A stretch of DNA of 64,000 bases from assembly GCA_000002445.1 (NCBI GenBank), contig CP000066.1, positions 1,184,001-1,248,000 on the forward strand. The letters are read 5' to 3'. Position numbers and translations under genes: made by a program. Position 1 is the stretch's first letter. Every line of letters begins with the position of its first letter. A model generated the notes under the pieces. That model saw only the letters and a list, made by a program, of their open reading frames with translations, ran no database searches and had not been told where the DNA came from. The DNA is from Trypanosoma brucei. Lineage: Eukaryota. Below are positions 18,462-56,639 of the stretch, in pieces.

Positions 18462-18493
<32 letters not shown>

Positions 18494-33122: not shown

Positions 33123-33515
33123 GGTAGCACTCTTTTATTAAGGATAATCGATTTCTTGTGTTGAAAGTTGTGTGATTTCTGTCTGGTGCTTGAAGTTCTT
33201 ACGTGATGTTTCTAGATCTTATTCCTTGCTTTCCTACAAGCTATTGCGAAAAACTGTTTGCCGGACGCGTACAAGATGATGAAGAAAAGTGTGAGCATCA
33301 GTGCAATGTTAAAGCTACACAGGCAAGTGGTGGTGCCGGAAGCCGTCGGTTTGGCACAATAACAGAGCGGATGCTCGAAAACGCATCATGGTGACCTACA
33401 TATACCGACCCAGTTGGGCCTTTATTACATCTAGTACAAGAATAAGAAAAGACTGCACAAGACATTGGCATCAAATAACTAGTTGCACTCAATTTACATA
33501 ATAATTGCGGCCACA

Positions 33516-35285
33516 CTATTCGAGGCGTGCCGGTGCAGTGTTGTTTCCGATGCGGACCTGCTCGCCACCGGCACCAGAGCTGCGCAGTAAGCGCGCCCTC
33601 TTGATTTCCTCGCGTTCGGCGGCAATCTTCACCTCCTCCTGCTTCGTCAGGTGCGAGCGGTACTCCACCATCTTGCTGCGGCGTGTAAGCACCTCCTCGT
33701 TGTTCTCGTCCACAGGGTGGTTGAACTCGATGCCAGCAGCGTCCAGAGCCTCCTCTGACTCCTTGAACTCCTCCAACGCCTTCGCCTGCTTCTCTTTCAG
33801 CATCGCCAGCTCCTCCTCTACGCCCTGGCGCAGCCTGTATAGCTCTTTCTTCATGTCGGCGTGCTTCTTCGCATTCGGGTCGAATGTTTCCACACAGAAC
33901 TCCAACTGGATGTGCGTTGTACGGATGTTCCGGTCAATCTCCTCCATCCGCTTCTCTTTCTTGTAGATAAGAGAACCCAACGTGAGGTACAGCATGCGGA
34001 AGTACTCCAAGTGCTCTTTATGAACATCCAAACGAAGGGCTGCAAGATCCTGGCTCGTTTTGTCGTGGCGGGCCTTCACCGCGGCACAGCCCTCCGACAC
34101 CAGCTCCTCCACCAGCCCGGTACAGCGGATCGCGAGGTCGCAGTTGTACACTGTCAGCTCGAGCAGTTTCTTGTGCTGCGAGGCAACCTCCAGGAATTGA
34201 GAGTACTCCACACGTCGCTTCTCCTCGCGGTCAATCTCCTCAATCCGCCGCTTGACCTCATCGAATCGCTCCGTGCCAAGCTTCTGCAACTGCCGCTCAA
34301 GGTCCTGGATCTTGTTCCACGTCTCCTCCTGCCTATCCTCGTTCTCTCGGATGTAGCGGTCGCTTTTCTCTTTGTTCGCAGCGTGGCGCTTCGTCGCCTC
34401 GGCATCCTCAAGGTCAGCCTTCTGGATCGCGTCGTGGATGTGCTTCAGATCTGTCTCACACCGCTGCTTCAGGCGACGCTTCGCATCCTTCATCTGACTC
34501 GTTTCCTGATTCGCCTGTTTCTGCACCTCATGGATTTTGCTGAAGGCCTGGTTCTCCTCCTCACATTTGCTGATCAAGCGGAATTTGTCCTGAATCAGAT
34601 CGATTAAGCGCTCCTGAAGCTGTACCTTCGTCCACATTTGCTCCTCGGCGACCTGCATCTCACCATCATGCATCGCAACGTTCTGGATCTCGTTCGTTTT
34701 TTCAAGCTGCGCCAACTGCGTCTTGATCTGGTCGTCAGTTGAGGCAAGCGCATTCTGGATTTGCGTTACGTTCATGATATCCTCCACTTGCTTCAATGTC
34801 TGTGTGGGGACCTGCGCCAACTGCGTTGCATCCAGCTGCGAGCGGCGAAGCTCCTCCTCAACCTTTTCAACCTTCGCGATGGCGTTGTCGATCATCTGCG
34901 TGAAGCTCACAACACGCGTCTTGTTGCGGTTCTGACGCAGGTCCTGAAGCACCTTTTTCATGGCAATAATGTCCATGAATTGTGCCTTGTCCTCAGGGCG
35001 GTAAAGCTCGCGTTGGCTCATCTCGAGTCCACACACGCGCATCAGCTTTGCGAGGTCGTACACCTCCGTTAGGTTCCATTTCGTACCGACGTCCACAGCG
35101 GCAACCAGCTCCTCAGCCTTCAGGTGGGCGCCGCGCAGCTTCTGCCTCTGTGTCTCGCTCCAGTCAGATACATGCAATTCCTGTACAAGTTCCTCATTCT
35201 CCAAACAGGCTGTCTTCAGCTTCAGGTTGTGGATCTTCTGCTTGCGCGCAGCCTCCAAACCAGTGGCATCGTCAACTGCGGCCAT
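33516..35285 (-). CDS. PFR1: Paraflagellar rod major component, copy 5 of 5 (the most upstream copy in the transcription unit).
   Basis: Identical 589-aa translation. It carries one synonymous difference from the other copies near 35051 (GTA to GTG, Val). Confidence 0.9.
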   Translation of the reverse strand: MAAVDDATGLEAARKQKIHNLKLKTACLENEELVQELHVSDWSETQRQKLRGAHLKAEELVAAVDVGTKWNLTEVYDLAKLMRVCGLEMSQRELYRPEDKAQFMDIIAMKKVLQDLRQNRNKTRVVSFTQMIDNAIAKVEKVEEELRRSQLDATQLAQVPTQTLKQVEDIMNVTQIQNALASTDDQIKTQLAQLEKTNEIQNVAMHDGEMQVAEEQMWTKVQLQERLIDLIQDKFRLISKCEEENQAFSKIHEVQKQANQETSQMKDAKRRLKQRCETDLKHIHDAIQKADLEDAEATKRHAANKEKSDRYIRENEDRQEETWNKIQDLERQLQKLGTERFDEVKRRIEEIDREEKRRVEYSQFLEVASQHKKLLELTVYNCDLAIRCTGLVEELVSEGCAAVKARHDKTSQDLAALRLDVHKEHLEYFRMLYLTLGSLIYKKEKRMEEIDRNIRTTHIQLEFCVETFDPNAKKHADMKKELYRLRQGVEEELAMLKEKQAKALEEFKESEEALDAAGIEFNHPVDENNEEVLTRRSKMVEYRSHLTKQEEVKIAAEREEIKRARLLRSSGAGGEQVRIGNNTAPARLE

Positions 35286-36868: not shown

Positions 36869-39262
36869 TCACGAAGAATCCTTCGGGCGTTTGCGCGCTC
36901 CAGTTTTCGGCATGAGTTCGTAGATAACGGGATCCGGTTCTAGTGTACACAGACAGTGCGCTATGTATTCCATCCTATATACCTTCAATCGTGAATTGAT
37001 AGCCGCAAGCTGCCCCTGCTCCCAGTTGTTGTCGTCGGAGAGGACGAAGTTTATGCTGTCGACAGGCCCAGACCCCTGAAGCAGAGCATCCACCAACTCC
37101 TGGGGTGTATACGGAATTACAGCCTTGCAGCCCCCACTTTGCAGAACGCGGGCGAAGCTCTTCGTCCTTAAATCAGTCGAACAACACAAAGCAACAGTCC
37201 AGGAAGCAAACGGCCGCTCGGTTCGGCGCCGTTGAAGCTGACACGCTTTCACAAGTTCAGAGACGGAGTTACGAAGCGACGCTCTTCGAGCCATTTCCGG
37301 GCACCATTCGTGTGGCTCCTCGGGGGGAATGCGATTTTCTTGTCTTGCTTCCTTAATAAACGAGGGTGCGAGCACCCACTTCCCTGCCGCAACGGCACTG
37401 AGAAAATATTCAGTTCTAGAAGGTCTTTCGGTAATGTAGTGTGTGCACTCTTCTACACTTATAGCTATCGTAAGTCCTAACGGCAGCAACTGAGAAAGTT
37501 CCTCTTCCAGATGTAAAAGTGATCTCGACAGCATAATACAACAAGGGGAAGGTGAAAACTCCCCCCGCCCCCCGCGTGGTGTATCGTCAATTTGAACCCT
37601 TTCACCTTCCTTTTCTGGATGAGGCGACACCCCTCTGTGTTCTATCTCTTTCCGCTCGCTTTGCGGTTGCTCCATATCAGCTTGCTTGTAGACTATCATC
37701 TGTGACGCTGGTGGAGTTTCCCGCCCGAACCTTCTACCGCACGCTGAAGAAGCAAGGGCATTAAAGGACACCTCTACATTGCAGGCGCATACGTCCCCCT
37801 CGCCCCGATCCTCTGCAGACCTACTTTGTGCCTGTCCCACACCCACAGCAGGTGACGTAGGCGTGACACTGGTTGCATCGGTCTTTGTTTCCAGTTCCCC
37901 AATCAGGTGCTCGAGCGAGCTTGAGAGCACAGAATCCCTCGGTGTTACGTCCTTGGAGAGACGTTGCAAACCATGGCCGTATGCACTGCTCCCACTCCTT
38001 CGCCCGTCGGCCAACACACCAGCAGATGCGACTGTCGCATTCCCCAACTCCTTGTTAAACTCGGAGAACTGTGGTGTATTCATGATGAAAGGGGAGCAGT
38101 CCTCCCAATATCCCGCCACAAGTGAGTGGTGTAGCCAGTCCACATGCACAAAAAAACACTCAATCACCCGTAGCTTATACCTTCGCCAGGCCAATGAAGC
38201 AACCTTAGTTGACCCTGCCAGGCCGTCAGCACTACCCACAACCAGGTGAGTAGTGTTGCTGCGCGCAAATGAGCCAACACTGTTCGCGCCCAGCACAAAG
38301 TCGTCCTGTATAACACACTGCATCCCGGCGCGCTTTAGGGAGTTCCGGAACGCCTCCCGGTCCTCTTGAGGCACAGCGGTGAATGTAATAACTGGTTTCA
38401 GAACACTAGAAACAACATACGGCTTCGCACACACACGCCCGTGACCTTGCGCTGCACACTCCTCGAGCCAGGAAAGTGAGACAAACTCTAGGCCGGGCCG
38501 AGGTGCAAAGAATTCAGTTGTTGGGCCCAGCAACACTACGTGGGTGGTAACTATTGTCAACGTCTGAGCCTGACGTATACCCGAGCGTTTGATTAGTTCC
38601 TTCACATCATCTGATACTAGATTAGGTGGAAAACAGTAGGCAACTGCGCCCGACCTCTCCCGCAGAGCGGTTATGCGCGTCGATATATCCCGCAGACCCG
38701 ATACTCCTACTAGTCCACCGTACTGTTGCGAAAACTGACAGTACGGTTTAACGCAGCATTGGTACTTCCGGGCAAACTGAACCTTAGCGTTTCGTGATAA
38801 ATCCGATATTCTGCTTGGAACAACTAATACTGAACATCTCCGGGTCATTTCGGGAGAGTACCTAGCTTGATGAGTCTCGCAAATTCTTTGCACCATCTGT
38901 CGTTCCGCAACATCCAATGAAGTTGTACACACCTCCAGCCCTCGAAGTGAGTAGTCAATCCCAAACTCACTTACTCGATCCATCGAGCAGTTGCCTGACA
39001 GCACCCACTCTGGTGTAACACATGGAATCCCGTGTACCTTAGCCAAAGCATATTTTTTCCCTTCGGTACTCCTGGCAACCAACACATTGGTCCTGTCCGT
39101 CAGTGTTTCTGTGTATGTCATACCTTGCTGCTCCAGCTTAGATTTAATGAGTTCCAGGTCATTTCCAGATATCGCTGTTGTTGTAACAAGCATGTATTTC
39201 GGTATATGGCACCCACGAGAGACGAAGACCACCCTCTCGTGGCTTATGGAAGAAACGTACAT
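36869..39262 (-). CDS. Protein with multiple BRCT domains (TopBP1/Dpb11/Cut5-like DNA-damage or replication scaffold).
   Basis: The 797-aa ORF has at least five BRCT-like units with the T-hhh...K.xxA...G..hV...Wh pattern (TRRCSVLVVPS..., THLVVGSADGL...VDWL, CTHYITERPSRTEYFLSAVAAGKWVLAPSFI, CCSTDLRTKSFARVLQSGGCKAVIPYTPQELV). Confidence 0.45.
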   Translation of the reverse strand: MYVSSISHERVVFVSRGCHIPKYMLVTTTAISGNDLELIKSKLEQQGMTYTETLTDRTNVLVARSTEGKKYALAKVHGIPCVTPEWVLSGNCSMDRVSEFGIDYSLRGLEVCTTSLDVAERQMVQRICETHQARYSPEMTRRCSVLVVPSRISDLSRNAKVQFARKYQCCVKPYCQFSQQYGGLVGVSGLRDISTRITALRERSGAVAYCFPPNLVSDDVKELIKRSGIRQAQTLTIVTTHVVLLGPTTEFFAPRPGLEFVSLSWLEECAAQGHGRVCAKPYVVSSVLKPVITFTAVPQEDREAFRNSLKRAGMQCVIQDDFVLGANSVGSFARSNTTHLVVGSADGLAGSTKVASLAWRRYKLRVIECFFVHVDWLHHSLVAGYWEDCSPFIMNTPQFSEFNKELGNATVASAGVLADGRRSGSSAYGHGLQRLSKDVTPRDSVLSSSLEHLIGELETKTDATSVTPTSPAVGVGQAQSRSAEDRGEGDVCACNVEVSFNALASSACGRRFGRETPPASQMIVYKQADMEQPQSERKEIEHRGVSPHPEKEGERVQIDDTPRGGRGEFSPSPCCIMLSRSLLHLEEELSQLLPLGLTIAISVEECTHYITERPSRTEYFLSAVAAGKWVLAPSFIKEARQENRIPPEEPHEWCPEMARRASLRNSVSELVKACQLQRRRTERPFASWTVALCCSTDLRTKSFARVLQSGGCKAVIPYTPQELVDALLQGSGPVDSINFVLSDDNNWEQGQLAAINSRLKVYRMEYIAHCLCTLEPDPVIYELMPKTGARKRPKDSS

Positions 39263-43813: not shown

Positions 43814-45331
43814 CTAATATGCTCTGCCTCGGTCAAGATTTGGAGGCGACCACTCATTAACGATAAGTTCGGGGAAAACATTAGGTTTCAAAGTTGAAGT
43901 ACCAAGAAGCATATTGACACACTCTTGGAACCCTTGGGTTATTGCAGGGTAAGCTGTATGGAGCTGACTCAGGTTATAAATCGATTCGCGATTATGAATT
44001 GCCAATGAAGCCAACTCAATAATGCTGCTTGCATGCGGTCCAACAGCTCGCACACCAAGAACCTGCATTTTGTGATCATTTGTAACGATAAGCTTCACAA
44101 AACCGCTCGTATTGCCCATTGCGAGGGCCCGACCCACAAATTCATAACCGTACCTGGCCACCTTGTATGCTATGTGTTCCTTCCTGCATTGTTGCTCATT
44201 GCGACCTACAGCGGCCACCTCCTGATCAAGAAACATAATCGTCGACAGATTGTCCAGGCGTTGAATAAGTTCTCCCTCCGGATATGGACGATACATATGC
44301 TCAATACAGGAACGCGCTTCCAACTCCCCAACGTTAACAAGCGCCACCCTTGAGCCGACATCACCACACGCATAAATATGCTTGTGTGGAACAACGCAAT
44401 AAAACTGGTCACGCTGGATTCGACCCTGCTTCAACTCAACACCGATTTTGTCGAGTCCAATGCTACCCACATTTGGATCCCTTCCTATTGAAACCAACGC
44501 CTTGTCGACCACGTGGTCTGTTAGCCTGTTGTCTCTCAAATCACGCAGCGTGTAACGGAATTGGCCGCCCTCCACCTTGTTGCTTTGCAAAGCAGAATGG
44601 TGGTGAAAATTGACCATCTTTGCCTCCAGGAGCTTCTGAACGAAGAGAGCAACATCATCATCTTCCATTGGCAATATTCGATTAGACTTTTCAATAACAT
44701 TTACTTCGGTAAGTCCAAAGTTCGCAAATATCGATGCAAACTCACATCCTATAACGCCAGCGCCGATAATGACAATGCTTTTCGGAAATGGTTGAGTCAT
44801 TATATCATCGGAAGTGAAGACAACCTCACCGTCGGCAATTACGGAAGCATGTTTACGAGGTTGAGCGCCGCACGCAATGACAAAGTAGTCGGCCCGTACC
44901 TCCTCAATGCCTCCACCCAACAGTTTAACATCGACACTGTGAGGTGACGTAAATGACCCATGACCACATATAACGTCAACGCTAACCTTCTCAAGCTGAT
45001 GAAGAATCTGGCCGTGACGGAACTCTGCTGCGCAATCTATTGATTTCTTAATATTCGAAAAATCAATACATGGGAGAGCTTGACGGCACTTCATAAAACG
45101 ATTGGCGGTTTGGCCGTTCATAAGGCGGACGAATTTTGCCATTTCCCATAACGTCTTCGACTGTAGCGCACCGTTCCAAAGGTCAGCACCTCCAATCCGT
45201 GATGACTCGATTATGCAAGCCCTTTTTCTATAATCCACAGCCCGCAACGCGGCGGCCACTCCTGCAGGTCCTCCCCCTATGACACAAACATCCACATTTT
45301 TCGCCCAGCTGAGCCGGGTTTTAGCAAACAT
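43814..45331 (-). CDS. Dihydrolipoamide-dehydrogenase-like flavoprotein lacking the redox-active disulfide (a 'point-mutant' LipDH paralogue, likely a pseudoenzyme).
   Basis: The 505-aa ORF has an FAD-binding GxGxxG motif (VCVIGGGPAGVAAA), an NAD-binding GxGxxG motif (IIGAGVIGCEF) and a C-terminal dimerisation region with a His...Glu pair. The canonical GGTCLNVGCIPSK active-site box is replaced by GGADLWNGALQSK, so both cysteines are lost. Confidence 0.6.
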   Translation of the reverse strand: MFAKTRLSWAKNVDVCVIGGGPAGVAAALRAVDYRKRACIIESSRIGGADLWNGALQSKTLWEMAKFVRLMNGQTANRFMKCRQALPCIDFSNIKKSIDCAAEFRHGQILHQLEKVSVDVICGHGSFTSPHSVDVKLLGGGIEEVRADYFVIACGAQPRKHASVIADGEVVFTSDDIMTQPFPKSIVIIGAGVIGCEFASIFANFGLTEVNVIEKSNRILPMEDDDVALFVQKLLEAKMVNFHHHSALQSNKVEGGQFRYTLRDLRDNRLTDHVVDKALVSIGRDPNVGSIGLDKIGVELKQGRIQRDQFYCVVPHKHIYACGDVGSRVALVNVGELEARSCIEHMYRPYPEGELIQRLDNLSTIMFLDQEVAAVGRNEQQCRKEHIAYKVARYGYEFVGRALAMGNTSGFVKLIVTNDHKMQVLGVRAVGPHASSIIELASLAIHNRESIYNLSQLHTAYPAITQGFQECVNMLLGTSTLKPNVFPELIVNEWSPPNLDRGRAY

Positions 45332-46711
45332 TAAAATTATTCGGTAAACCTGATACGATAGCAGGGAAATAATTAGCGGAAGTAAGAGTTTTTCTCAGGC
45401 AGAAGCGACAGAAAGTTAAAATACGCAGCTGAGGGTTATCGTAGAGAGTCAGATGAGCACATATATTTATCTTATGGGAAGTCAAATGGCACACACTGAA
45501 GGAAAGCAGCAACACAAACACCCTATTATACCACTTCCTTCCTCTCAGCGGTGCTTCTAAAACCATTCCCCTTCACTCCCTCCTCCTAGAGCGGACGCGA
45601 CCAGGTGCAAGAGAACGAGAAGGAAAGGCGCAGCGGGCAGATCTGGCCATCCGGACGAGAACACACTAAGCATCCTGACTGAAAACGGCGGTGCTAAGCG
45701 ACAGTGAAGGTGAAAAAAAGAACCACAACAGCAGTGTTACAGCAGACAGCGACACGCATGCAAATTTCGCTTTGCAAGTCAAAGGTAATGGGGAGCGAGG
45801 GGAGTTGGCAAGCGTCCACCGGTAGTGTGGAGCGCGAGGCCCGCGCAGTTCGCCCCACCCTCCATTAACCAGGCCAAACGAGCCAAACAAATCGAAAGGG
45901 GGAAAAGCACGACCACTCCTGAGAGCGACAATATTGCACCCAACCCTTCACACACATCCGTACGGAACCGGAGGCTGCATGAAATTCCGCCTACGGTCAG
46001 CCCAGCATCGGGAATATGGCTCAGCACCGCGCACCCAGCGGTCCCGCCCAGCCCCGCAATAATTCTAAGCAGCGGTCACCGCCCCGACGCCCCCATCACA
46101 TACTTCACCGTCCGAAAGCAAGGAAGCGGCCAGACGTACGTTCAGGCGGACGGGCGGCAACATAGCGCACAAAACCCGGGAGGGTAGTTCAACCGAAGGA
46201 AGCAGCTTCCTCCTCCCCCACCGGAGTCGACGTCAGCATCAAACGAGGAGGAAAACAAAGGAAGACCGGCACCATGCGGCCCCTCGAAAAGAGATATGTG
46301 CGGCGGGTGGTCAAAGCACCCGCGCAAGGAACATAATACTGCAAAGGGCTTTTAGCCCTTTAACGGGCGAGCACAGCCGGTCGGGTATATGACGACGGGC
46401 AAGGGGGCGGCGGATCTGTCCCTAAGAAACGCCGAAGCCATCTTTCACACTCCAGTGCCGCAACAACGCGGTTCCCCCGGGAGTGGGTGGGGCCCGTTTC
46501 TCAGCATGATTTTCCCTCGCCCGAACCCCACTTCGGCTCACTGACGAAAGCCTTTCCGCGCACAGACACCAACAAGAAGCACGACGCGGCAGAAAATCGT
46601 CACAGACGACCACGTAACGGTCTAGCGAACCACTTACACAGTTCCCTTCTTCGAGGGGTAATCCCTTCAGAGAGCCCCTCCTCAGCGGATATCACATAAC
46701 CAAGAGCCAGT

Positions 46712-46859
46712 TCAGTGTCTCACGCCCTTGTTTCCTGGGGGGAAAAAAGCATTGGGAGGGGGCGCGCTACTCGACTTCCCCGGCGCTGGTGGTGGTGACA
46801 AAGCGGTGCCCCCTCCCAATGCTTTTTTCCCCCCAGGAAACAAGGGCGTGAGACACTGA
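46712..46859. repeat. Perfect inverted repeat (palindrome) with 52-nt arms (46712-46763 and 46808-46859) separated by a 44-nt spacer.
   Basis: The reverse complement of 46712-46763 (..agtgtctcacgcccttgtttcctggggggaaaaaagcattgggagggggc) equals 46808-46859 exactly, by manual base-by-base comparison. It sits in a GC-rich, ORF-free region. Confidence 0.85.
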
Positions 46860-49523
46860 GGTGAAGGAGAACCTTCTGGATGCCCCTCCGAAGTGACCTG
46901 CTAACGACCCCACCGAATAACCGCCTACAGACCCCACTAATAAGCAACTGCCGCACCTTTTCGTTTGGTAACTGTTGATGCGGAGAGTGCGTTTCAACCC
47001 CAACTCCATTTGGCCTGAGGAAGCGGAAAGCATCATTTTGAAGAGGAGAGAAATGTTGACAAGCGCTGTCGTTCTAAGAGGGCAGGCCTAAATACAGTCA
47101 CTATCGAAGGGAGGGGTCACCTGCATAGAGGGCAAAAAACAAATTTGTTCAAGGAAAACCAACCAATCCGAACGATTTTTGATTCTCAAGGGTAAAAAAT
47201 CATCGATACAGCATCACGGATGATATCTAAATTCTTCCTTCGCGCCGTAAAGGGAACCCATTTGGCATCTCTACTGACATTTTCACTGTGTATTCAAGTC
47301 ATCCGTTATTTGTTTATTTATTTTAGAAACGATACACACTTACAAGCGGAGCGCGGCGTCACGTTTTCACCTTAACTCAGCAAGTGCAGGCCCTCTACAA
47401 CCGGAGGTTTGGAAGGGGGCGTTTCGTTTCGTTTGTGCACACCATCCTGCAGGAAAGCATGCCCCTCCACCCTTTCGTACAAAGGTCCGCGCACCACATA
47501 CAGCAAAACCAAGGGTCGAGCCCCCTCCTCTCCCCAACACACACGTAACATTTCAACATGTCGCTGGAAAATGATGCCCAAGGGCAATATATTGGAGGAG
47601 ATCCATTCCTACCAGTTGGATCACCCGAACCCTAACAAAAGCCGGCCACCTTTCTGGGGAATCAGCCCTTGAGTCACCCTCGGCGGCGGATGCAGGTTCC
47701 CTCGAACGTCAGGGAGGAAATCTGCAAAAAAAAAATGTAGTTTTACTCCACAGATCTCTGAAGGTTGATCAAACACACCGCTGTTGAGTTTTCTTTCTGT
47801 TATACAAATGCCCATCGTTGGTGCCATAACTTTCGCCTCCCCAAAATGGAGTGCGCTCTGATGCCACAGGCGTTCTGAGTTCCGCATCCCTAGCAACGGC
47901 TCCCAACCTATTTTCCGCGTGAGGATGGGCACAATTTCAAGGTCACGCAGAGCATACGCCCATAGTGCCTCTTTATTCTGTTTTCAAGAACACTGCGTTC
48001 GCTGGGGGCTATTACCCACATTAGCTCACCCAGTGGTCTTTGTTCTTCGTCCTTCACTTGAAAAATATCACTCTGGGAGCGCCTTTCCATTTGAGGCGTG
48101 TAGTTGTGTTAATGACCGGTTTATCCGGGACTGTGAAAGAACAGGCTTTGCGATCATGATGAGGGAGGCTAAGATTGGTGTTGATGGGCGGAAAATTCCC
48201 TCGCGATGCCGGCCACCTCATCATGGGTCTAGGGTCCAGTACACCATCTCATCGGGTTAAGCCAAGAGCCAGCAGCGTTCTTCTCCAGGGTAACACTGCT
48301 CTGCCCGGCTGCGGCATCATACAGCACAGGGATCAGCAGCGTCTTGCTGGGACACCGCTTTTCATTTGTCGGTCCCTGGGTGTGTGCCAGTGTGCCATCA
48401 GCGGCAGAACGGATGGTGTTTTCCTTGAAAAAGCTGTGCGTCTATTTTTCCGCAACCGTTTCAGCACTGCGATGGAAAGAATATTGAAAAAAAGTGTTTA
48501 ACAACAAGCTTAAGAGGAAAACTCAGTGATGAACAGTGTTGGCGATGGTGGAATTGTCTGTGCTCGTTGATTGTTGTGTGCATTGTGCGAGTGATAAAAG
48601 CGTGTTTTATCTACATGTTTCTTCCGTGCGTTCGTTTCCTTCAATATTATGCACTCTAGCCTTTAGGCGAAAGCCTAAGCATCCGCGCAGTTTCCGCACA
48701 TACCGCAATTTACACTCGTTATTTTTGGTTGTGTACTCGTTGCCGACGGCTGGAAACTCTGAGTGTGAAGAAATCGGGAATCTCTGTGGGGCCCGTGCTC
48801 TTGGACGTAATCTCACCGTTTGTGAAAAGAGCGCCTTCATTGCGGAGATCGGGTGGCCTAGTGGAATGAAAATGGTCAACACGTACCACTTCCCCCACAC
48901 AGGGACAAAAACGTGGTAGTTCCAGAGAGCGATCTGGGCAACAAATATAACCTTGCACAAGGAAGCTCTTTTTCACGGCATGCGCAACTTTTTTCTTTGT
49001 TTGAAGGATGCGGGTGCAAAGTTCGAACAGGTACGTCAAAGGCTTATGCGGGATGTCACTCTGTCCTTCGAAGGACCTTTCTCGTTCCGATACCAGTGCG
49101 CCAAAAACGAAACTTACGCGGAAACGCCTCCACGCGCAAACCTCTTCTCGCGGCGCCAGCTGTTGGGGAGACGGCAACGTCAACTAAGTAAAGGCCTCAA
49201 ACCCGACGGCAGCGGAACGAAAACAGGAACCGACGCCACGCATTCGGACGCCAGCCCCGGCGCTGCTGACCCGTCTCTTTTGAAGCAACACAAATCAAAA
49301 ATTTAAATAACAAGAACTTTGTCACGAGGTTAATTTTTCTCTCCGGAGCGGTTGTTGATTTAGAGCAGTTGCCTGAAGTCATGGTTAAGGGGTTCGGTTC
49401 CCCGGTCATCTGTCGTTTTTTCCATAAAGCGCTTTTCTCAGAGCCTTCGGCCGGCGTCGTGTAGCATACATAAATATAAGTACGTCAAATTTTAGTAAAT
49501 TTAGTAAAGAGGTCGGCGCACGT

Positions 49524-49604
49524 GTCACCATACCCAAGTGGTTACGGGGACTGACTAGAAATCAGTTGCGATCTCGCGCGCAGGTTCGAATCCTGCTGGT
49601 GACG
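49524..49604 (+). tRNA. tRNA-Ser (anticodon AGA), class II with a long variable arm.
   Basis: Cloverleaf fold: acceptor GTCACCA/TGGTGAC, D-arm CCC-AAGTGGTTAC-GGG, anticodon stem ACTGA/TCAGT with loop CTAGAAA, 13-nt variable arm, T-arm GCAGG-TTCGAAT-CCTGC (B box), discriminator G, followed by T6 at 49605-49610. Confidence 0.88.
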
Positions 49605-49610
49605 TTTTTT
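49605..49610 (+). terminator. Pol III oligo-T terminator for tRNA-Ser(AGA).
   Basis: TTTTTT immediately 3' of the discriminator base. Confidence 0.7.
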
Positions 49611-49809
49611 CGTCAATTCCCCGTGTTCCGCTGCTTTTGTCCAGTCAACTTTTTTCCGTAACAACAGCGATTGGGAATTGGGAAACGGTACGCGCACCAC
49701 AGGCCAGTTGTGACCACCAAGCAACACAGAGACGCCGCGGAGGACGGACAGCGTTGGGCAACACCGCTCCGAAGGGTGAAAACAATCAGCCGATTTGGGT
49801 GCGAAAAAG

Positions 49810-49891
49810 TGACAAGAGTGGGGTTTGAACCCACGCCTACGAATAGAAGAGAACTTGAGTCTCCCGCCTTAGACCACTCGGCCATCTTGCC
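49810..49891 (-). tRNA. tRNA-Leu (anticodon CAA), class II.
   Basis: The reverse complement gives GGCAAGA-TG-GCC-GAGTGGTCTAA-GGC-G-GGAGA-CTCAAGT-TCTCT, a variable hairpin (CTA-TTCG-TAG), GTGGG-TTCAAAC-CCCAC, TCTTGTC and discriminator A. A T5 run on the coding strand (A-run at 49804-49808) follows the 3' end. Confidence 0.88.
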
Positions 49892-49950
49892 ATCGACGGC
49901 CACAACAGATTTGTTTTAGACACTTTTTTTATTTATGCAATGCCAAAAAC

Positions 49951-50031
49951 CGTCACCAGCAGGATTCGAACCTGCGCGCGAGATCGCAACTGATTTCGAG
50001 TCAGTCCCCGTAACCACTTGGGTATGGTGAC
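49951..50031 (-). tRNA. tRNA-Ser (anticodon CGA), class II. It is identical to the plus-strand tRNA-Ser except for a single anticodon base.
   Basis: The reverse complement equals the 49524-49604 sequence except that anticodon loop CTCGAAA replaces CTAGAAA. A T5 run on the coding strand (A-run at 49945-49949) follows the 3' end. Confidence 0.88.
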
Positions 50032-53000
50032 ACCGCCTCGCCACCACCTCTCAAATGCGTTACCCTTGCACAAGCGATCGATGCCGTGATTTTTTTGTGC
50101 GTTTCTGTGCGATGCGGAGTGTGAAGCGGTTGGTGGTGGTTTGCCGTCCTCCAACGGACGGCCGCCAGTCACTTGTCGTATGAGCCGATAAAGCTGCGCC
50201 GGAGTTTTCCTGGAAGTCCTCTCTGAACAATATAACTGTGGGATGTGGACGCAGAAATTTGTAGGGCTTAAAGTCACGGCGTCAAGTTGCAGTGCCAGTC
50301 GTTGATGGGCGGGCCACCATCGGATAAGAAGGGTGGGGGACACTACGCGCCACAGAACAGCACTATGAGACTATAAAAATGAGGTAAAGCCGCACATGAG
50401 CTTGTTGTAGTCACTCAGTTATGTGGTGGAGCGTCTCACGAGTCGGCGCGGTGGCCATGGCAAATGGAAAGGACATTGGATCATCACAGTACCATTACAA
50501 GTGCACATCTTTCGGTGCTTTGTTTTGGAGTTAAAGAAGATGGAAGAGTCGGAAAATTTTCTTCAATTTAACACCACTAACTCAGTGCTCTTGAGCTTCA
50601 CTATCAACAGTTTCCGTTTGTGGCTCGTGTGTCCCAAGTGTCCACAAGGTTTGTACGCCTCGGGCCTCTCGGAACAGTAACGTGCCTGCGGATTGTGGAG
50701 AAAAAGTGGATAGTAAAATTAATGAATGTAGGGAGAACACGCCCTATGTACTGATTTTTTGTGAGCTTTTTTCTCGTGTTAGAGACTCACCCGCTCAAGT
50801 TACTGCATTCTTCAGGCTATGGGGAAGGCCATATTCAAGAAAATTGGCTGTGTGAACAGCAGCTGCCTCTGAATAGAGCAGGTGAATCACCGATTGGGCC
50901 TCCATGACTTTCCCACGGTGGGGAACATAAGAATTCCACATATTAATGTCCACGGAGCCGTGCAGATAGGCGTTTTTATGTTCCTAAAAACCTACTAGCG
51001 TCAACCGTGTTGGCACAACAGCGTTGAAGCCGTCTCTAGAGTCTCCGCTGTGGGGAGTAATCGGCGTTTACTTTCCTGTGAGATGCCCGTTCACCTCCAT
51101 TATTTCACGACATCAAAAAAAAAAACGTTCCAAACTTGGTTATGTGGATACTTAATGTTCAAGGGGTCAAGTACACGGGTCGAAAGTTTCATCGTTTCAA
51201 AAAATTTATTACCAGCAATGTTAGGTGTGTATTGAACTGTTTTTTCCGGGAAAAGTTGGTAAATGAATCTGTCATAGGGAAACTTGCCACCTTCACCAGC
51301 CCATTCTGAACAACAGCCCCCAGCATGTAGATTTTGAAATACGCATTGTTTTCCACGGGATTCGCACCGGTTTCTTCTGCGCGCCTTTGTGTTTTCGCTT
51401 ATCGCTCTGAAAGTCACATTTTTTTGTGGAAACATCTGCATGGTTCCCCTCGATTATTTCTTCGGTCCGGGCGCCGCATGTGCGTGAATTTCTGTCGATG
51501 TGTGTCCCAACAGTTGGATTGCCTCTTCAGTCTTTACTGAACCTTGTTGACTTCTACGTGCGCTGCGTGGGTTGCCTGCAGCGTGCTTAGGGTCATTTTA
51601 CCTTGGGATGCTCTCTGTTCCCGTGCCGAAGTGACGGCTGTAGTTGAACCGTTGTAATGAGCTTAAATGATCCTTTGCTGCGTGTCCAAAATGCTCAAGT
51701 ACTATGGACGCCCCACCCCCTGGGATGAAGTTGCCACACCAAGAGCACCGGCCACGATTACTCGTGCGGATGAAGCCGCGGACTTCCCACCGATTTGAAT
51801 GTCACCGTACTTATGGTCGTGTTGGGCGCCGTTGGCGTCTTACAAGCCACCAGCACTTTGACTCATGATGTTCCAGCGTCTTGTGTTTCATTTCCCGGAG
51901 TACTGGTTTTATCTGCTCTACTATACCAAATGTATGCGGTTGCTGCGATCCACGTGAGAAAATACGAACTGCGGTGCGCACTGCGTAAGTCTGTCTAGTC
52001 AAAGCTTTTATTTGGCCCTTTTCGCCGCATTTTCCGCTTGTAAAAAAAGTTGATCTCGGCACACTTTGTTTTACTTTCTCTAAATATTGCTCCAGTCAAT
52101 ATGTTTGGAGTCTTCTGCAGCCTCTTTCCCTATTTTTGGTGCCTTTGAATATTCTCGTCCAGCTAGTTTTTCTCTTTTTTTATTTTCTCTGGCTAGTCTC
52201 GCCTTTTCTCCTTCATAAATTAACTTATATAATTGGCGTTCTGCAGTTGCAAGTTTGTTGGTACTCTCGTTTATTCCGCTGCTTTTCTGGAGTATATCTT
52301 CCCTCCATCCTCATTTTTCCTACGTTCTCGTTTTTGCTGGACCACTGTAGTTGAACGCCGTTGTAATTTTCCTAACATCTGTTGAAACCCATTGAAACTT
52401 CATTGTGATCTCCACTCTCATATAGGTTGTGAAATTTGACAAGTCTTCTAAACATCGACTCACTGCCTTCGTTCGTGTCGGTTTCACGGGTATTGTGTCG
52501 CTTCAGTGGTGCAACCTGGCACTTGTGCGTGCGTGTCTGCTAAAAAATTTGTTTTCTCAACACAGAGAAGTGCTGGCATGGACTAGGTGCGTGGTGAAAC
52601 TACTAACCTACGTTGTTTTATTTTTTTTTGTTAAGTTATAAAAGGAAATCTGGAAAATTTGAAAGGTTATAAGATTCTGGCACAGTTGCCTCCTTTGTGT
52701 CTCCGATGTGCTGGTCAAGTCCTCCATGACTGTGCTCAACTGAATCAAGTATCATCTCTAAGTTTAGAAACGTCGCTACGATTCAAGAAAATGGCTTTCC
52801 CCCAGTTTGATTGCTTTTGCCGCTTCGGAAATGAAGTTGGTGGTGGCCGTCCATGGTCGAAACCTTTACTGGCGTATGCGTTTCTGCCCTTCCAAGCAGT
52901 CAAGTCGCTGAGCTACCACTCACCCCCTATTACGTTGCACACTCCATAGTAATGTCAGGGCCCATATTCCAGATGAGAGGGAAAACCGAGCGTGTTCATC

Positions 53001-55475
53001 AATTCTGTTCCTTAGTGATTGGGGCCGGCAGATGATTGTCGGCCTCCGGGGGGAGCAGGCATCAAAGTCATCGGTTCTCGGGGATGAAAAGGAACATCAC
53101 CTTACCCTTCTGCAATCGTGAGGGCACCTTTTCGGTGGTCTGTAGGCCAGCACAGTCATCAAGCACGCTCTACAAAAATAACCCGGACACAATCCCACAT
53201 GGATCGCAATGGGGAGCTAGGGAGCTCCCACAGCCGAAAAGATTCGCTTTGGCAAAGCAACTTCACAGTTACGACGTCAATTTCTGAATTTTGCGAGGAT
53301 TACGTGTGCCCAAAGAAGCGGAATACAAAAATGAAATATTAACAGAAGACCATAGAAATTGCACGGCCCTGAAAATGAAGACAGAACCAATACTTGAAAC
53401 GGGTAGCGACGGTATGCTTTGGGCCCCGCGATGTACAGGGAGGTATGAAAGAGCATCGGCTAAATCGATGCCGGGCAGGGGCTATAAGTCACATTTCTGC
53501 CAACATATCCCTAAAAAGCGGAAGCGGCCACAAGGCGAGCGCCGGATTCGCTCCGCCCAACAGTTAGCGCATTGATGACCGGTGCCGATATGAACTGGAG
53601 CAGTCGGGAGTTAGCTCCATACACACAGCCAGGCGAAGCAGGCTGCCTCGTCCAGGGGCATTTGGAAGGGAAACTGAGGAGAGCCAACTCTGGGAAGGCC
53701 GCAATAAAGCCTCGAAGGCGTAACTGGTCCTCACAGCTGGGCGTGGCCACATACGGAGGGTGCTGGGTATTAAACTGGAACTCGAAATTGAACTGAATTA
53801 GCGACAGCAATAGAATCATATTCTAAGTAGGGATGTGCATGAATGCTGATAAAGTCATTTTTTTTGTACTTTCACCACACACTACTCGCAGAATAAGAAC
53901 GATTGAATAGCTTGCCAACAAACACAGGTGCACGGGGTAAAGAATGGCTCGAGCGTGACCCAAAGAAAATAGGAATATAAAGGAGGTTACGCTATTGTCT
54001 CCGGTAAGAATGGAAACACAGACGACAACACCAAAAACAGATACACTGGCGCAACACTTCTTGAGCAAAGAGCTGAAAATCTTCTAAATGGAATGACGTT
54101 ATGTGACAATGTAAGCGGAAAAGTAGCGGAGAAACATAAGGTGAAAAGTCTAATCAAAGGAAAGACACAGAGTGATGGAGAGGAAAAACATTTAAGGCAA
54201 GAAACACAGAAACAGCAGCCATCAACTCAACCAATCAGGAATTCCCACCGAGGTTACAAAACACGCAAGAAATAATTGTCACCAGGCCATTGCCGATAAA
54301 GGGACGGCTGCAGCTGTAATATCACCGGGGGCTGAGGAAGTAAGGACATATTATTTCCATGGAACAAGCAAACTAACGCGCAGTTGCTGAGCAAAAGGTG
54401 TGGCAACGGAAGGAGGACCCAGAGCATTTATTGGCATTTGGGGAAACGGTTAAAGAGCGGAAGGACATTGGCGGCACTCGCCAACTTACTGTCCCCACGA
54501 TTAACTCTAAAAATAGGTCCTGCGAAAGTAAAGGAAGGGATGCTATGATGGACGTGGAAACACAGGGCGAAATTAACCAAAGGCGTAGAACCAACCATCA
54601 GGTCAACGTTTTCACACTGTCGGACAAAGAAAAATTATGAAATGGAGCGAAAACCCAACGAGGGCAACCTCACTTCAAAACAGTGCTCGGCGTGGTAGAC
54701 GGGGATTGCCACCGCAGTGGCGGAAAAGTTGAAAAGGAATGGCGAAGGGAAGCGGTACCCAATGTCTATGGCCAAAAAAAATATGAGAGGTCCTTGCCAA
54801 AGCGTGCCTCCCTCCGGGTAGTTCCGGCGAACTCACTGGAAAGCCAACAGCACGGTCGCGAATAGGGGCGCCCCGCACGTAACCGGGGGCTGTGTAGTGG
54901 GACTGAGAATTTTGTGGCAACTCCTCCTCCTCCTCCTACCTTTTACTGAGGTTCAAGTAACTTTTCCCTTTCCCCAGGAAATTGCAGGTCGAATTTTTGG
55001 CATTTCAGATGATGCGAATTATCGCTGTGAGTCGCTTGTGGCATCAGCAGTAAGAGCCTGGAAACGCCTCCGGGTCGCGTTTAAACCGCCCGGCTTCGAA
55101 CTAGCAGTGTGCGACGCACTGGGCCGGTGCCGTTGCGCACACAAAGAGGGCGGCTGCATTGTCAGCGGCTTATTCCAATATTGCGTGAGGGGCATTTCAG
55201 AAACTGCTGAACTTGTGGCGTTTGAGCATTTTTTCATTTAGAAAGGGAGAAAAGATGAGATATCTGCCATGCTACTTTTCGGATGAAGTAAGTTTGAGCG
55301 TTGCCGCAGCCCTGATAATGCGGCGGTGGGAGTGGTAGTGGCTAGATGATTTTAAATGTTACAGTGATTGGGTGGATGCTGTGGGTGAATTTTAAGTAGG
55401 AAAATGCGACCACTCAGAGGCTGCCTCTCCATTTGAGTTGCTGGTGTTTCGCGTTCGCGCAGGATATCCAATGGG

Positions 55476-56639
55476 TCATACGTCCTTCACTGCCCCTACC
55501 TCCGTCCTGAGTGATTGATGTCGCAAAGCGACATCCTCCACCTTGTAGAACTCCTTCTGCACAAGGTTGTCAAGCGCGTCGGCCACCAGGGCTTTCTGCG
55601 ACAACTGGGACCTGAGTTTCTTGCATTCCATGTCCGCCTGGCAGCTTATACGACTGATGCGTGCGCTAAGGTCGGCCCGACCATTATGTAGTTGCTCGAC
55701 ATCTGAAGATATTACCTCCACGTGTTGTTTTACACGCTGAAGGTTTCGAGTAACCCACTGTCTTGTCGTTTCTATTTCTTCCATGAGCAATGCCCGCGCC
55801 TGCTTCGCCTCGTTACCTAAAGTCACCACGGTGCCCGCAGTCTTGTCAACCTTTTGCTCCAGCGAACTGAGCGACTGGGTAATACCGTCAATTTTTTCTT
55901 GAAGCGGTGGAACCCGTGAATAATCCCGTCCTACTGACATCTCCAAATCCCTTAAAGAGCTTTCCACGAGCCGTAATTTTTCACGAAGGGTATCTTGCGC
56001 CTCTTGCCTTGACAAGTCCTTCTGCTCCGCCTCGCCCCACAGGGATGCGATCCGCTCCTCCACATCTCTTCTCACGTCACTCACTGTGTTTTCTATGCGT
56101 TGTTTCGTTCGTGCCGCTTGCTCTTCTCCGTCGGCTCGGATCTTCGCCAGATCACTCAAAAATGCTTGGTGGGCATCTTCTAATGTTTCCTGTACCTTGG
56201 AAATGATGAATTGTTTGAATGTTTCCATATCCTCTAACCTTGCACAGGCCTGCTCTAACCGTTTTAACCGCGACAGCAGCTCCTGCTGCTGAAACCTGAT
56301 GTCGGCCTCCTTTTCCTCTTGGATTCCTTGGGCTAGTTTCACCAACTTCGTAAGGTTCACCATTTTTTCATCGAACATACACACGCGGGCGGAGAGCTCC
56401 TCTACTCGATCAAGCAACTGCTGAACAGAGAAGGCGCCCTTCAACATCCACTCCACTCGTGACTCGGCGGCTGAGTCCACCTGTGCCGACCTTAAGGGCT
56501 CTTGAGGAGATACACTTTCCTTCTTTCGTGGCCGCAAATATATGTCAGTGTAGTCCATCGCTCGCACTGCGTCGGACAATCGTCTTGTTATGCTTTCCAA
56601 AAATAACAAAAGTAATGTAAAAGAGATGTGGGAGAGCAT
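55476..56639 (-). CDS. Hypothetical coiled-coil protein. The true start may be the internal Met (MDYTDIY...).
   Basis: The 387-aa ORF is dominated by heptad-like E/K/R/L/Q-rich sequence with no recognisable catalytic motif. It fits the same-strand gene run. Confidence 0.45.
   Translation of the reverse strand: MLSHISFTLLLLFLESITRRLSDAVRAMDYTDIYLRPRKKESVSPQEPLRSAQVDSAAESRVEWMLKGAFSVQQLLDRVEELSARVCMFDEKMVNLTKLVKLAQGIQEEKEADIRFQQQELLSRLKRLEQACARLEDMETFKQFIISKVQETLEDAHQAFLSDLAKIRADGEEQAARTKQRIENTVSDVRRDVEERIASLWGEAEQKDLSRQEAQDTLREKLRLVESSLRDLEMSVGRDYSRVPPLQEKIDGITQSLSSLEQKVDKTAGTVVTLGNEAKQARALLMEEIETTRQWVTRNLQRVKQHVEVISSDVEQLHNGRADLSARISRISCQADMECKKLRSQLSQKALVADALDNLVQKEFYKVEDVALRHQSLRTEVGAVKDV

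What the first reader, a model, noticed from the sequence alone, without database searches (positions are those of the whole stretch)
45332..55475. A ~10-kb stretch free of protein-coding genes between two same-strand transcription units, likely a combined Pol II termination and re-initiation zone
All confident genes on both sides are on the minus strand, but 45.3-55.5 kb has no ORF with convincing composition. The six-frame ORFs there are short and have no recognisable motifs. The stretch contains the tRNA cluster, so Pol III is active there. Its downstream edge (45.6-47 kb) is GC-rich and holds the palindrome. In trypanosomes such head-to-tail boundaries carry base J/H3.V termination marks and H2A.Z-marked initiation zones, and they sometimes host degenerate retroposon or pseudogene remnants. 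The region is also where an undescribed ncRNA could be hiding.
Basis: partly seen in the sequence, partly recalled or inferred. Interest (0 to 1): 0.5.

Follow-up and report, generated by a model that had tools for sequence, protein, structure and literature searches.

The report
Known tRNA-marked boundary between transcription units
The 10-kb gene-free stretch is a boundary between two same-strand transcription units on Trypanosoma brucei chromosome 3, marked by three tRNA genes; a 2010 transcriptome paper already lists it as such, so it is ordinary.

Summary
Window 45332-55475 has no ORF longer than chance, no Pfam domain in any frame, and no homologue for its longest ORFs. The next-largest gap between long ORFs (150 aa or more) in the window is 2.9 kb.

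The window maps exactly to T. brucei TREU927 chromosome 3, Tb927_03_v4:1,184,001-1,248,000. The gap lies between Tb927.3.4400 and Tb927.3.4390.

Kolev et al. 2010 (PMC2936537, Table S14) list Tb927.3.4400 as the last gene of one minus-strand unit. They list Tb927.3.4390 as the first gene of the next unit, typed "next to tRNA".

The same paper lists one spliced, polyadenylated, low-abundance transcript in the gap, Tb3.NT.54 (window 47120 to 45442, minus strand). It covers the GC-rich segment and the palindrome, and I found no coding evidence for it.

No retroposon or pseudogene remnant is detectable in T. brucei. VIPER-like retroelement remnants do sit at the syntenic boundary in T. vivax, T. 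melophagium and T. cruzi. The Ser/Leu tRNA pair also marks this site in Leishmania.

One small new point: the palindrome has three different structures in three T. brucei genomes.

Novelty: already known. Interest: low.

The parts
55344..55475 (-). 3' UTR of Tb927.3.4400, the last gene of the upstream unit. The mapped transcript end is at 55344.
   Evidence: Kolev 2010 Table S1 gives the transcript as 1240592..1239344, which is window 56592..55344. The ORF is 55476-56639.
50033..55343 (.). 5.3-kb spacer between the last mRNA of the upstream unit and the tRNA cluster. It has no listed processed transcript and is the presumed Pol II termination zone. The extra length is specific to the T. brucei lineage. 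Strand composition flips inside it: the plus strand is pyrimidine-rich at about 51-53 kb and the minus strand at 53-55 kb.
   Evidence: No ORF, Pfam hit or homologue. No novel transcript is listed between 1231120 and 1239344. The same interval is 475, 447 and 686 nt in T. vivax, T. melophagium and L. braziliensis.
49950..50032 (-). tRNA-Ser(CGA), same orientation as the flanking units, followed by T5.
   Evidence: Syntenic in T. vivax, T. melophagium and L. braziliensis.
49809..49891 (-). tRNA-Leu(CAA), same orientation as the flanking units, followed by T5.
   Evidence: Syntenic in T. vivax, T. melophagium and L. braziliensis.
49523..49605 (+). tRNA-Ser(AGA), opposite orientation, followed by T6. 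It forms an 89-nt, 98% complementary inverted repeat with tRNA-Ser(CGA).
   Evidence: A tRNA-Ser(AGA) lies upstream of DLD in T. vivax, T. melophagium and T. cruzi.
47121..49522 (-). Presumed Pol II initiation zone of the downstream unit, between the tRNA cluster and the first mapped splice-acceptor site. It contains a hypervariable patch at 49209-49362.
   Evidence: Inferred. Table S14 types the unit as 'next to tRNA' and the first spliced transcript starts at 47120. There is no ORF or Pfam hit. The patch is shown.
45442..47120 (-). Tb3.NT.54: a spliced, polyadenylated transcript of 1678 nt at 0.25 RNA per cell, with no coding evidence. It is the first processed RNA of the downstream unit and covers the GC-rich segment.
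   Evidence: Kolev 2010 Tables S7 and S12. On the minus strand an AG (47122-47121) preceded by a polypyrimidine tract sits directly upstream of 47120 (read). The longest minus-strand ATG ORF is 89 aa. The transcript is absent from Tables S8-S11.
46712..46859 (.). Perfect palindrome with 52-nt arms and a 44-nt spacer, inside Tb3.NT.54. Its structure differs among T. brucei genomes.
   Evidence: RNA fold -126 kcal/mol, z -15. The spacer is inverted in T. b. equiperdum, with a C/G-to-T/A substitution at mirror positions in both arms. The central 86 bp are absent in T. b. gambiense.
45332..45349 (-). 18-nt 5' UTR of Tb927.3.4390 (DLD). The major splice-acceptor site is at 45349.
   Evidence: Kolev 2010 Table S12 gives SAS 1229349 and a 5' UTR of 18 nt. 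An AG lies at 45351-45350 on the minus strand (read).

Best explanation
The stretch is the head-to-tail boundary between two minus-strand polycistronic Pol II transcription units on T. brucei chromosome 3: Tb927.3.4890 to Tb927.3.4400, and Tb927.3.4390 to Tb927.3.4020.

The proposed sequence of events is as follows.
1. Pol II coming from the upstream unit makes the last mRNA, which ends at window 55344.
2. It then terminates somewhere in the 5.3-kb spacer or at the three Pol III-transcribed tRNA genes (50032-49523). The transcription complexes and nucleosome-free chromatin of those genes would act as a roadblock.
3. Pol II starts again in the 2.4 kb downstream of the tRNAs.
4. The first processed product is a rare spliced transcript with no coding evidence, Tb3.NT.54 (47120 to 45442). 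The DLD mRNA follows, spliced at 45349.

Shown: the absence of genes, the tRNA genes, the mapped splice and poly(A) sites, the published unit boundaries and the synteny. Inferred: the exact termination and initiation positions and the roadblock role of the tRNA genes.

The extra DNA itself is unconstrained filler. It diverges faster than its surroundings and its length and content differ between trypanosome lineages.
For: - Mapping: the window maps exactly to Tb927_03_v4. Gene identities agree: PFR1 is Tb927.3.4290, Sam50 is Tb927.3.4380, DLD is Tb927.3.4390, and the gene order matches.
- Published unit table: Tb927.3.4390 is the first gene of a unit typed 'next to tRNA', and Tb927.3.4400 is the last gene of the preceding unit. 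The supporting text on 5'-triphosphate reads, histone marks and tRNA genes as strong Pol II stops is.
- Transcripts: only Tb3.NT.54 is listed between the two genes.
- Literature on the class: head-to-tail termination regions often coincide with Pol III genes, and 20 termination regions overlap tRNA or snRNA genes. There are 57 non-divergent start regions.
- No coding content.
- Synteny: the Ser(CGA)/Leu(CAA) pair sits between the same two genes in L. braziliensis, T. melophagium and T. vivax. In T. cruzi synteny breaks here and DLD heads a divergent cluster.
- Divergence between TREU927 and T. b. equiperdum: 0.26% in CDS, 0.97% in intergenic DNA inside the unit, 1.52% in the gap.
Against: - I could not inspect ChIP or nascent-RNA tracks. 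The boundary call rests on one published table and general statements.
- The 'next to tRNA' class in that table may partly reflect position rather than a site-specific signal.
- G+T richness on the coding strand at 45.5-47 kb is only 0.56-0.60, against a window mean of 0.52 (sd 0.04). Coding regions elsewhere in the window match it, and the presumed initiation zone at 47.1-49.5 kb is not GT-rich.
- Loss of base J gave no read-through at head-to-tail sites in T. brucei, so the causal role of the expected marks is open.
Confidence: 0.9

Rival explanations
1. The stretch is only a long intergenic region inside one continuous Pol II unit. Polymerase reads through the tRNA genes and there is no termination or re-initiation.
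For: In L. braziliensis the same tRNA pair sits in a 1.9-kb intergenic space between same-strand genes. Not all tRNA genes coincide with a termination region.
Against: The published unit table splits the cluster exactly here. No processed transcript is listed across 8.2 kb. T. cruzi has a strand switch at this point. Acetylated-H3 peaks are reported downstream of all tRNA clusters that lie inside Leishmania gene clusters.
Confidence: 0.05
2. The stretch hides a fast-evolving or unannotated protein-coding gene, or a recent pseudogene. One candidate is a product encoded by Tb3.NT.54 or by the 105-124 aa ORFs annotated in T. b. gambiense.
For: A spliced, polyadenylated transcript exists. The T. 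b. gambiense annotation calls four short ORFs in the gap. A few short ORFs reach the codon-usage scores of real genes.
Against: ORF lengths are at or below chance. There are no Pfam hits and no homologue for any segment of 100 aa or more. tblastx finds no conservation with T. vivax, T. melophagium, T. cruzi or Leishmania outside the tRNAs. The gap diverges faster than intergenic DNA inside the unit. Tb3.NT.54 is absent from the paper's tables of transcripts with homology or peptide support.
Confidence: 0.03
3. This concerns the origin of the DNA and is compatible with the best explanation. The extra 8-9 kb would be decayed insertions of mobile elements that accumulated at a boundary where they do no harm, as in other trypanosomes, and are now beyond recognition in T. 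brucei.
For: A roughly 3-kb degenerate retroelement lies in the syntenic gap of T. vivax, T. melophagium and T. cruzi.
- It has a Gag-like CX2CX4HX4C motif, a tyrosine-recombinase-like ORF and an RNase H, in the VIPER order.
- It is multi-copy in T. melophagium, T. theileri, T. grayi and T. vivax.
- It sits at different positions relative to tRNA-Ser(AGA) in T. vivax and T. melophagium, which suggests independent insertions.

The T. brucei gap expanded in an interval that is under 0.7 kb in the other species. It also contains a segment of reversed strand composition.
Against: Nothing in the T. brucei gap matches the element. A tyrosine-recombinase profile gives a best E of 0.98, and phmmer with 69 element segments gives only scattered, non-collinear hits. 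No reverse-transcriptase, endonuclease or RHS domain is found. No repeat is shared with the other 54 kb of the window. I had no T. brucei repeat library (ingi, RIME, DIRE, SIDER), so remnants detectable only at the DNA level were not tested.
Confidence: 0.35
4. The stretch is primarily a chromosome-maintenance element, such as a centromere or a replication origin, rather than a transcription boundary.
For: From my own knowledge, not checked here: T. brucei origins and ORC1/CDC6 sites lie at unit boundaries. Cohesin is enriched at boundaries that contain tRNA genes.
Against: There is no AT-rich satellite array or any tandem repeat in the gap. GC is average or high. Nothing in the sequence points to a centromere. 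An origin cannot be read from sequence.
Confidence: 0.1

Closest known systems
Head-to-tail (non-divergent) Pol II unit boundaries next to tRNA genes in T. brucei (Siegel 2009; Kolev 2010; Wedel 2017; Staneva 2021)
   Same: Same-strand flanking units, a gene-free interval, Pol III genes inside it, and a downstream unit starting 'next to tRNA'. This exact locus is in Kolev 2010 Table S14.
   Different: Nothing essential. The interval is long (10.1 kb), and about 5 kb of it lies upstream of the tRNAs and is specific to the T. brucei lineage.
tRNA-associated Pol II termination in Leishmania major (the chromosome 3 convergent region, and tRNA clusters inside gene clusters with acetylated-H3 peaks downstream)
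   Same: tRNA genes separate Pol II units and re-initiation marks lie just downstream. The same Ser(CGA)/Leu(CAA) pair sits at the orthologous site in L. braziliensis.
   Different: The Leishmania interval is only 1.9 kb and has no tRNA-Ser(AGA). I did not check marks at the Leishmania orthologue itself.
GT-rich dispersed Pol II promoters of T. brucei (Wedel 2017, PMC5579346)
   Same: The coding strand upstream of the first gene is somewhat G+T-rich and GC-rich at 45.5-47 kb.
   Different: The enrichment is about 1-2 sd and is matched by coding regions elsewhere in the window. The segment lies downstream of the first mapped splice site, and the presumed start zone is not GT-rich.
VIPER tyrosine-recombinase retrotransposons of trypanosomatids (PMC6681497)
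   Same: Degenerate copies with Gag-like CH-box, tyrosine-recombinase and RT/RNase H order occupy the syntenic gap in T. vivax, T. melophagium and T. cruzi.
   Different: Not detectable in the T. brucei gap.
Long inverted repeats that produce siRNAs in T. brucei (Tschudi 2012, PMC3447711)
   Same: A perfect inverted repeat lies inside a Pol II transcript and would fold into a 52-bp double-stranded RNA stem.
   Different: The published repeats are 422-10,011 bp and none is on chromosome 3. The only chromosome 3 loci in the paper's supplementary files are three convergent transcription units at other coordinates. The repeat is structurally unstable among subspecies.

Membership tests
Head-to-tail Pol II unit boundary (termination region plus non-divergent start region) | Protein-coding genes on the same strand on both sides, with a gene-free interval between them | tested here: met
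Head-to-tail Pol II unit boundary (termination region plus non-divergent start region) | Experimental evidence that one unit ends and another begins (5'-triphosphate RNA, variant or modified histones) | tested here: met
   Checked by look-up only. Kolev 2010 Table S14 lists Tb927.3.4400 as the last gene and Tb927.3.4390 as the first gene of separate units, typed 'next to tRNA'. I did not see the raw tracks.
Head-to-tail Pol II unit boundary (termination region plus non-divergent start region) | H3.V, H4.V and base J over the termination side; H2A.Z, H2B.V and H4K10ac over the start side | not testable with these tools
   No ChIP tracks were available. The flanking genes do not appear in the supplementary tables of PMC4721609.
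Head-to-tail Pol II unit boundary (termination region plus non-divergent start region) | Pol III-transcribed genes inside the interval (frequent, not obligatory) | tested here: met
   Three tRNA genes with T-run terminators.
GT-rich Pol II promoter | Marked G+T enrichment on the coding strand in the start region | tested here: inconclusive
   0.56-0.60 at 45.5-47 kb against a window mean of 0.52 (sd 0.04), and 0.46-0.55 at 47-49.5 kb. The cross-species pattern is weak.
VIPER / tyrosine-recombinase retroelement remnant | Detectable Gag-like, tyrosine-recombinase or RT/RNase H coding similarity | tested here: not met
   For T. brucei, profile and phmmer searches gave no significant or collinear hit, while positive controls scored 1e-77 to 1e-83. 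The feature is met in T. vivax, T. melophagium and T. cruzi.
ingi / RIME / DIRE / SLACS retroposon remnant | Reverse-transcriptase or endonuclease domain, or DNA similarity to the element consensus | tested here: not met
   No RVT or endonuclease Pfam hit. DNA-level comparison with a T. brucei repeat library was not possible.
RHS, VSG or ESAG pseudogene | Residual protein similarity to the family | tested here: not met
   No Pfam hit and no homologue for segments of 100 aa or more.
Pol III small RNA gene with a divergent companion tRNA (snRNA or 7SL type) | A structured, conserved small RNA about 100 nt upstream of a tRNA gene and divergent from it | tested here: not met
   Rfam finds only tRNAs, at gathering threshold and at E up to 5. 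The two candidate positions fold no better than shuffles, z +1.2 and -1.5. Conservation with T. vivax and T. melophagium stops within about 10 nt of the tRNAs.
siRNA-producing inverted repeat | A transcribed inverted repeat with mapped 22-25-nt small RNAs | tested here: inconclusive
   The hairpin and the transcript are present. The locus is not in the published lists. Small-RNA reads were not available.

The most novel reading that the evidence does not exclude
The palindrome inside the first transcript of the unit could be an active element rather than debris. Three T. brucei genomes carry three forms of it: the spacer in either orientation, or a central 86-bp deletion. A substitution between strains sits at mirror positions in both arms. 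It could therefore be a cruciform or hairpin-forming fragile site, a recombination hotspot, or a source of double-stranded RNA, placed in the start region just downstream of the presumed initiation zone. Separately, the Ser/Leu tRNA pair may be a boundary element that predates the split of Leishmania and Trypanosoma and has repeatedly captured retroelement insertions.
Probability: 0.1. Interest if true: 0.45.

Novelty: already known. Interest (0 to 1): 0.15.

Why it matters
It matters little beyond confirmation. The locus is a textbook example of how trypanosomes separate polycistronic Pol II units with Pol III genes, and it is already tabulated in the literature.

Three comparative points are modest additions.
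- The tRNA-marked boundary is conserved from Leishmania to Trypanosoma, while its length varies from 1.9 to 10 kb.
- Retroelements sit in the same gap in three other trypanosome lineages.
- A palindrome in the start region differs in structure among T. brucei subspecies.

These could serve as a small case study of how unit boundaries evolve.

Tried and rejected
- **Codon-usage scoring of gap ORFs.** It separates genes from spurious ORFs too weakly here, so I did not use it as evidence.
- **Direct translation of whole frames in the Pfam tool.** I replaced it with stop-to-stop segments and stop-to-X frames. The sixth whole frame of 50040-55475, and whole frames of 45.3-50 kb, were tested only as segments of 45 aa or more.
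- **Protein-collection searches with concatenated ORFs.** Only the 19 segments of 100 aa or more were searched, with no hit. The short ORFs annotated in T. b. gambiense were also not returned. That collection therefore evidently lacks them, and the negative result says nothing about annotation status.
- **Exact-product look-ups.** The window's DLD and Tb927.3.4400 products are not on record. Loci were reached through homologues and Sam50 instead.
- **VIPER remnant in T. brucei.** Rejected.
- **Companion Pol III small RNA next to the tRNAs.** Rejected.
- **GT-rich promoter signature.** Weak.
- **Weak microRNA-family matches over the palindrome.** Far below gathering scores; they only reflect the hairpin.
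- **Centromere.** No satellite repeats.
- **siRNA locus.** Not in the published lists.
- **H3.V/J paper supplements.** The flanking genes are not mentioned.
- **Bacterial promoter and terminator scan.** Not run, because it does not apply to this organism.
Full report
**Where the window comes from**

The 505-aa ORF at 43814-45331 on the minus strand is a dihydrolipoamide-dehydrogenase-like (DLD) protein. It shows 100% identity in the search output to a T. brucei equiperdum protein. The T. b. equiperdum locus has this gene order: flagellar-rod protein array, diphthamide synthase, BRCT protein, ribosomal S8 family, folliculin, Omp85/Sam50, DLD. It has no called gene in the 10 kb upstream of DLD.

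Papers give PFR1 as Tb927.3.4290, Sam50 as Tb927.3.4380 and a DLD as Tb927.3.4390. The supplementary tables of Kolev et al. 2010 (PMC2936537) fix the mapping exactly.
- The Tb927.3.4400 ORF at 1240639..1239476 equals window 56639..55476.
- Tb927.3.4350 at 1223262..1220869 equals window 39262..36869.
- The splice sites and 5' UTR lengths of Tb927.3.4370, 4380 and 4390 fall on the window's start codons.

The window is therefore Tb927_03_v4:1,184,001-1,248,000. The finding is the interval between Tb927.3.4400 and Tb927.3.4390.

**The observation**

It is correct.
- The longest stop-to-stop frame in 45332-55475 is 154 aa. Markov simulations of the same length give a mean longest frame of 179 aa.
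- The other gaps between long minus-strand ORFs are 185-2894 nt.
- Pfam finds nothing in any segment of 45 aa or more on either strand. It also finds nothing in whole-frame translations of the 5.4 kb upstream of the tRNAs.
- The 19 longest segments have no match in the large protein collection.
- Rfam finds only the three tRNAs, even at permissive thresholds. The weak microRNA-family matches are just the palindrome hairpin.
- The tRNAs are Ser(CGA) and Leu(CAA) on the minus strand and Ser(AGA) on the plus strand. Each is followed directly by 5-6 T.

**What it is**

Kolev et al. 2010 Table S14 lists two putative Pol II units here: 'Tb927.3.4890 to Tb927.3.4400, minus, Divergent' and 'Tb927.3.4390 to Tb927.3.4020, minus, next to tRNA'. 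The gap is thus a published head-to-tail boundary.

The paper states that 5'-triphosphate RNA reads and the variant or modified histones of Siegel et al. mark the beginnings of units near tRNA genes. It describes tRNA genes as strong stops for Pol II. Later work says the same of the class.
- Termination regions between head-to-tail units often coincide with Pol I or Pol III genes that may block Pol II, and 20 termination regions overlap tRNA or snRNA genes.
- 57 non-divergent start regions are recognised.

**Anatomy along the direction of transcription (high to low coordinates)**

1. The Tb927.3.4400 transcript ends at 55344.
2. No processed transcript is listed for the next 8.2 kb.
3. The tRNA cluster occupies 50032-49523.
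4. The first mapped splice-acceptor site after it is at 47120. It belongs to Tb3.NT.54, a 1678-nt transcript at 0.25 RNA per cell with very dispersed splice sites, ending at 45442.
5. The DLD mRNA is spliced at 45349, 18 nt before its ATG.

The sequence agrees with both splice sites. On the minus strand an AG lies immediately upstream of 47120, preceded by a polypyrimidine tract, and another AG lies immediately upstream of 45349 (read).

Tb3.NT.54 covers the GC-rich segment and the palindrome. Its longest minus-strand ATG ORF is 89 aa. It is absent from the paper's tables of novel transcripts with homology or peptide support.

Initiation must therefore lie between the tRNAs and 47120. Termination must lie between 55344 and the tRNAs. 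Both placements are inferences.

**Comparative evidence**

I fetched the orthologous loci through DLD homologues.
- **Synteny of the boundary.** The orthologue of Tb927.3.4400 is followed by tRNA-Ser(CGA) and tRNA-Leu(CAA), and then by DLD, in L. braziliensis, T. melophagium and T. vivax. A tRNA-Ser(AGA) lies upstream of DLD in T. vivax, T. melophagium and T. cruzi.
- **T. cruzi.** Synteny breaks exactly here. A trans-sialidase, a retroelement remnant and an intact DnaJ-domain ORF lie on the opposite strand. DLD therefore heads a divergent cluster 430 nt after tRNA-Ser(AGA).
- **Interval length.** It is 1.9 kb in L. braziliensis, 7.1 kb in T. melophagium, 9.3 kb in T. vivax and 10.1 kb in T. 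brucei.
- **Where the expansion sits.** T. brucei has 5.4 kb between the last gene and the first tRNA, where the other species have 0.45-0.7 kb.
- **Sequence conservation.** Outside the tRNAs nothing in the T. brucei gap is conserved with any other species, by blastn or tblastx.

**Retroelements**

The gaps of T. vivax, T. melophagium and T. cruzi share a collinear, roughly 3-kb series of degenerate reading frames, on the strand opposite to the flanking genes.
- These carry a CX2CX4HX4C zinc knuckle, a tyrosine-recombinase-like ORF and an RNase H, in that order. This is the layout described for VIPER.
- The family is dispersed in T. melophagium, T. theileri, T. grayi and T. vivax.
- In T. melophagium the element lies upstream of tRNA-Ser(AGA). 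In T. vivax it lies downstream of it. That suggests independent insertions.

A profile built from these sequences finds the T. cruzi and T. vivax copies at 1e-77 to 1e-83. In the T. brucei gap its best E-value is 0.98. I could not compare the gap with a T. brucei repeat library at the DNA level.

**Evolutionary rate**

Between TREU927 and T. b. equiperdum, substitutions are 0.26% in coding sequence, 0.97% in intergenic DNA inside the unit and 1.52% in the gap. This fits a lack of constraint. A patch at 49209-49362 is much more divergent: about 18 differences in 160 nt, mostly specific to TREU927.

**The palindrome**

It folds into a 52-bp stem (-126 kcal/mol, z -15). It is the only long inverted repeat in the window that is neither low-complexity sequence nor the two tRNA-Ser genes.
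- In T. b. equiperdum the 44-nt spacer is in the opposite orientation. A C/G-to-T/A substitution sits at mirror positions in both arms, leaving a single G/A mismatch between them.
- In T. b. gambiense the central 86 bp are missing. That leaves arms of about 24 nt around a 4-nt loop.

This is the behaviour expected of an unstable palindrome: inversion by recombination between the arms, and central deletion. It argues against a conserved function for the full hairpin. It is not among the published siRNA-producing inverted repeats. Chromosome 3 appears in that paper's supplementary files only as three convergent transcription units at other coordinates. Assembly artefacts in one or more genomes cannot be fully excluded.

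**Promoter signal**

G+T content of the coding strand is 0.56-0.60 at 45.5-47 kb, against a window mean of 0.52 (sd 0.04). Coding regions elsewhere equal it, and the presumed start zone at 47-49.5 kb is not enriched. The relatives show only a weak, inconsistent pattern. I treat this as inconclusive.

**Verdict**

It is a documented instance of a well-known kind. The remaining open points are minor: the origin of the filler DNA, the role, if any, of the polymorphic palindrome and of Tb3.NT.54, and the exact termination and initiation sites.

Noticed in passing
window 46712-46859; L001 8479-8624; L010 about 6680-6735: The palindrome has three structural states in three T. brucei genomes. TREU927 has 52-nt arms and a 44-nt spacer. 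T. b. equiperdum has the spacer inverted and a substitution at mirror positions in both arms. T. b. gambiense lacks the central 86 bp.
   Followed up: yes
window 49209-49362: A hypervariable patch 160-300 nt from tRNA-Ser(AGA). TREU927 differs from both T. b. gambiense and T. b. equiperdum at about 18 of 160 positions, roughly seven times the gap average. The cause is unknown; a conversion tract, an old haplotype or a local mutation hotspot are possible.
   Followed up: partly
L002 4231-7224 (-), L007 3781-6740 (-), L004 2289-4931 (-): Degenerate VIPER-like tyrosine-recombinase retroelement copies lie in the syntenic gap of T. vivax, T. melophagium and T. cruzi, always antisense to the flanking genes. 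Several public homologues of the recombinase ORF are named 'trans-sialidase' (P0123, P0124, P0129), which looks like annotation carry-over.
   Followed up: partly
L004 6978-8456 (-): An intact 492-aa ORF with an N-terminal DnaJ domain (E 5e-23) and a multi-pass hydrophobic region lies between the retroelement remnant and tRNA-Ser in T. cruzi. It is not among the called genes of that locus.
   Followed up: no
window 49522-49610 and 49945-50033: The two tRNA-Ser genes (AGA and CGA anticodons) form an 89-nt inverted repeat that is 98% complementary. They are near-identical apart from the anticodon, which suggests duplication or concerted evolution.
   Followed up: no
window 50033-55343, especially 51000-53000: The 5.3 kb between Tb927.3.4400 and the tRNAs has no counterpart in T. 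vivax, T. melophagium or Leishmania. It contains a segment whose plus strand is pyrimidine-rich (65% at 52.0-52.5 kb), the polarity expected of plus-strand intergenic DNA. This could be an inverted or imported fragment.
   Followed up: partly
window 55476-56639: Kolev 2010 Table S1 lists Tb927.3.4400 among ORFs with a misannotated start. The splice site at 1240592 (window 56592) lies 47 nt inside the 387-aa ORF, so the true start codon is further downstream.
   Followed up: no
window 24864-35285: Five tandem copies of a 589-aa paraflagellar-rod gene (PFR1, Tb927.3.4290 onwards) with a 2163-nt period. The tandem-repeat tool does not report them because the period exceeds its limit. In T. b. gambiense the copy nearest the diphthamide synthase gene (the first in the transcription direction) is called at 508 aa.
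   Followed up: no
window 15895-18788: The second-largest gap between ORFs (2.9 kb). It is very AT-rich (GC 0.33-0.36) with TA, CA and poly-T/poly-A low-complexity tracts. This may be a long UTR or intergenic region.
   Followed up: no
L010 2093-2425 (+), 4232-4558 (-), 4619-4993 (-), 5037-5354 (-): The T. b. gambiense annotation calls four ORFs of 105-124 aa inside the gap, with no Pfam hit. They have chance-level lengths and correspond to ORFs that have no homologues.
   Followed up: partly
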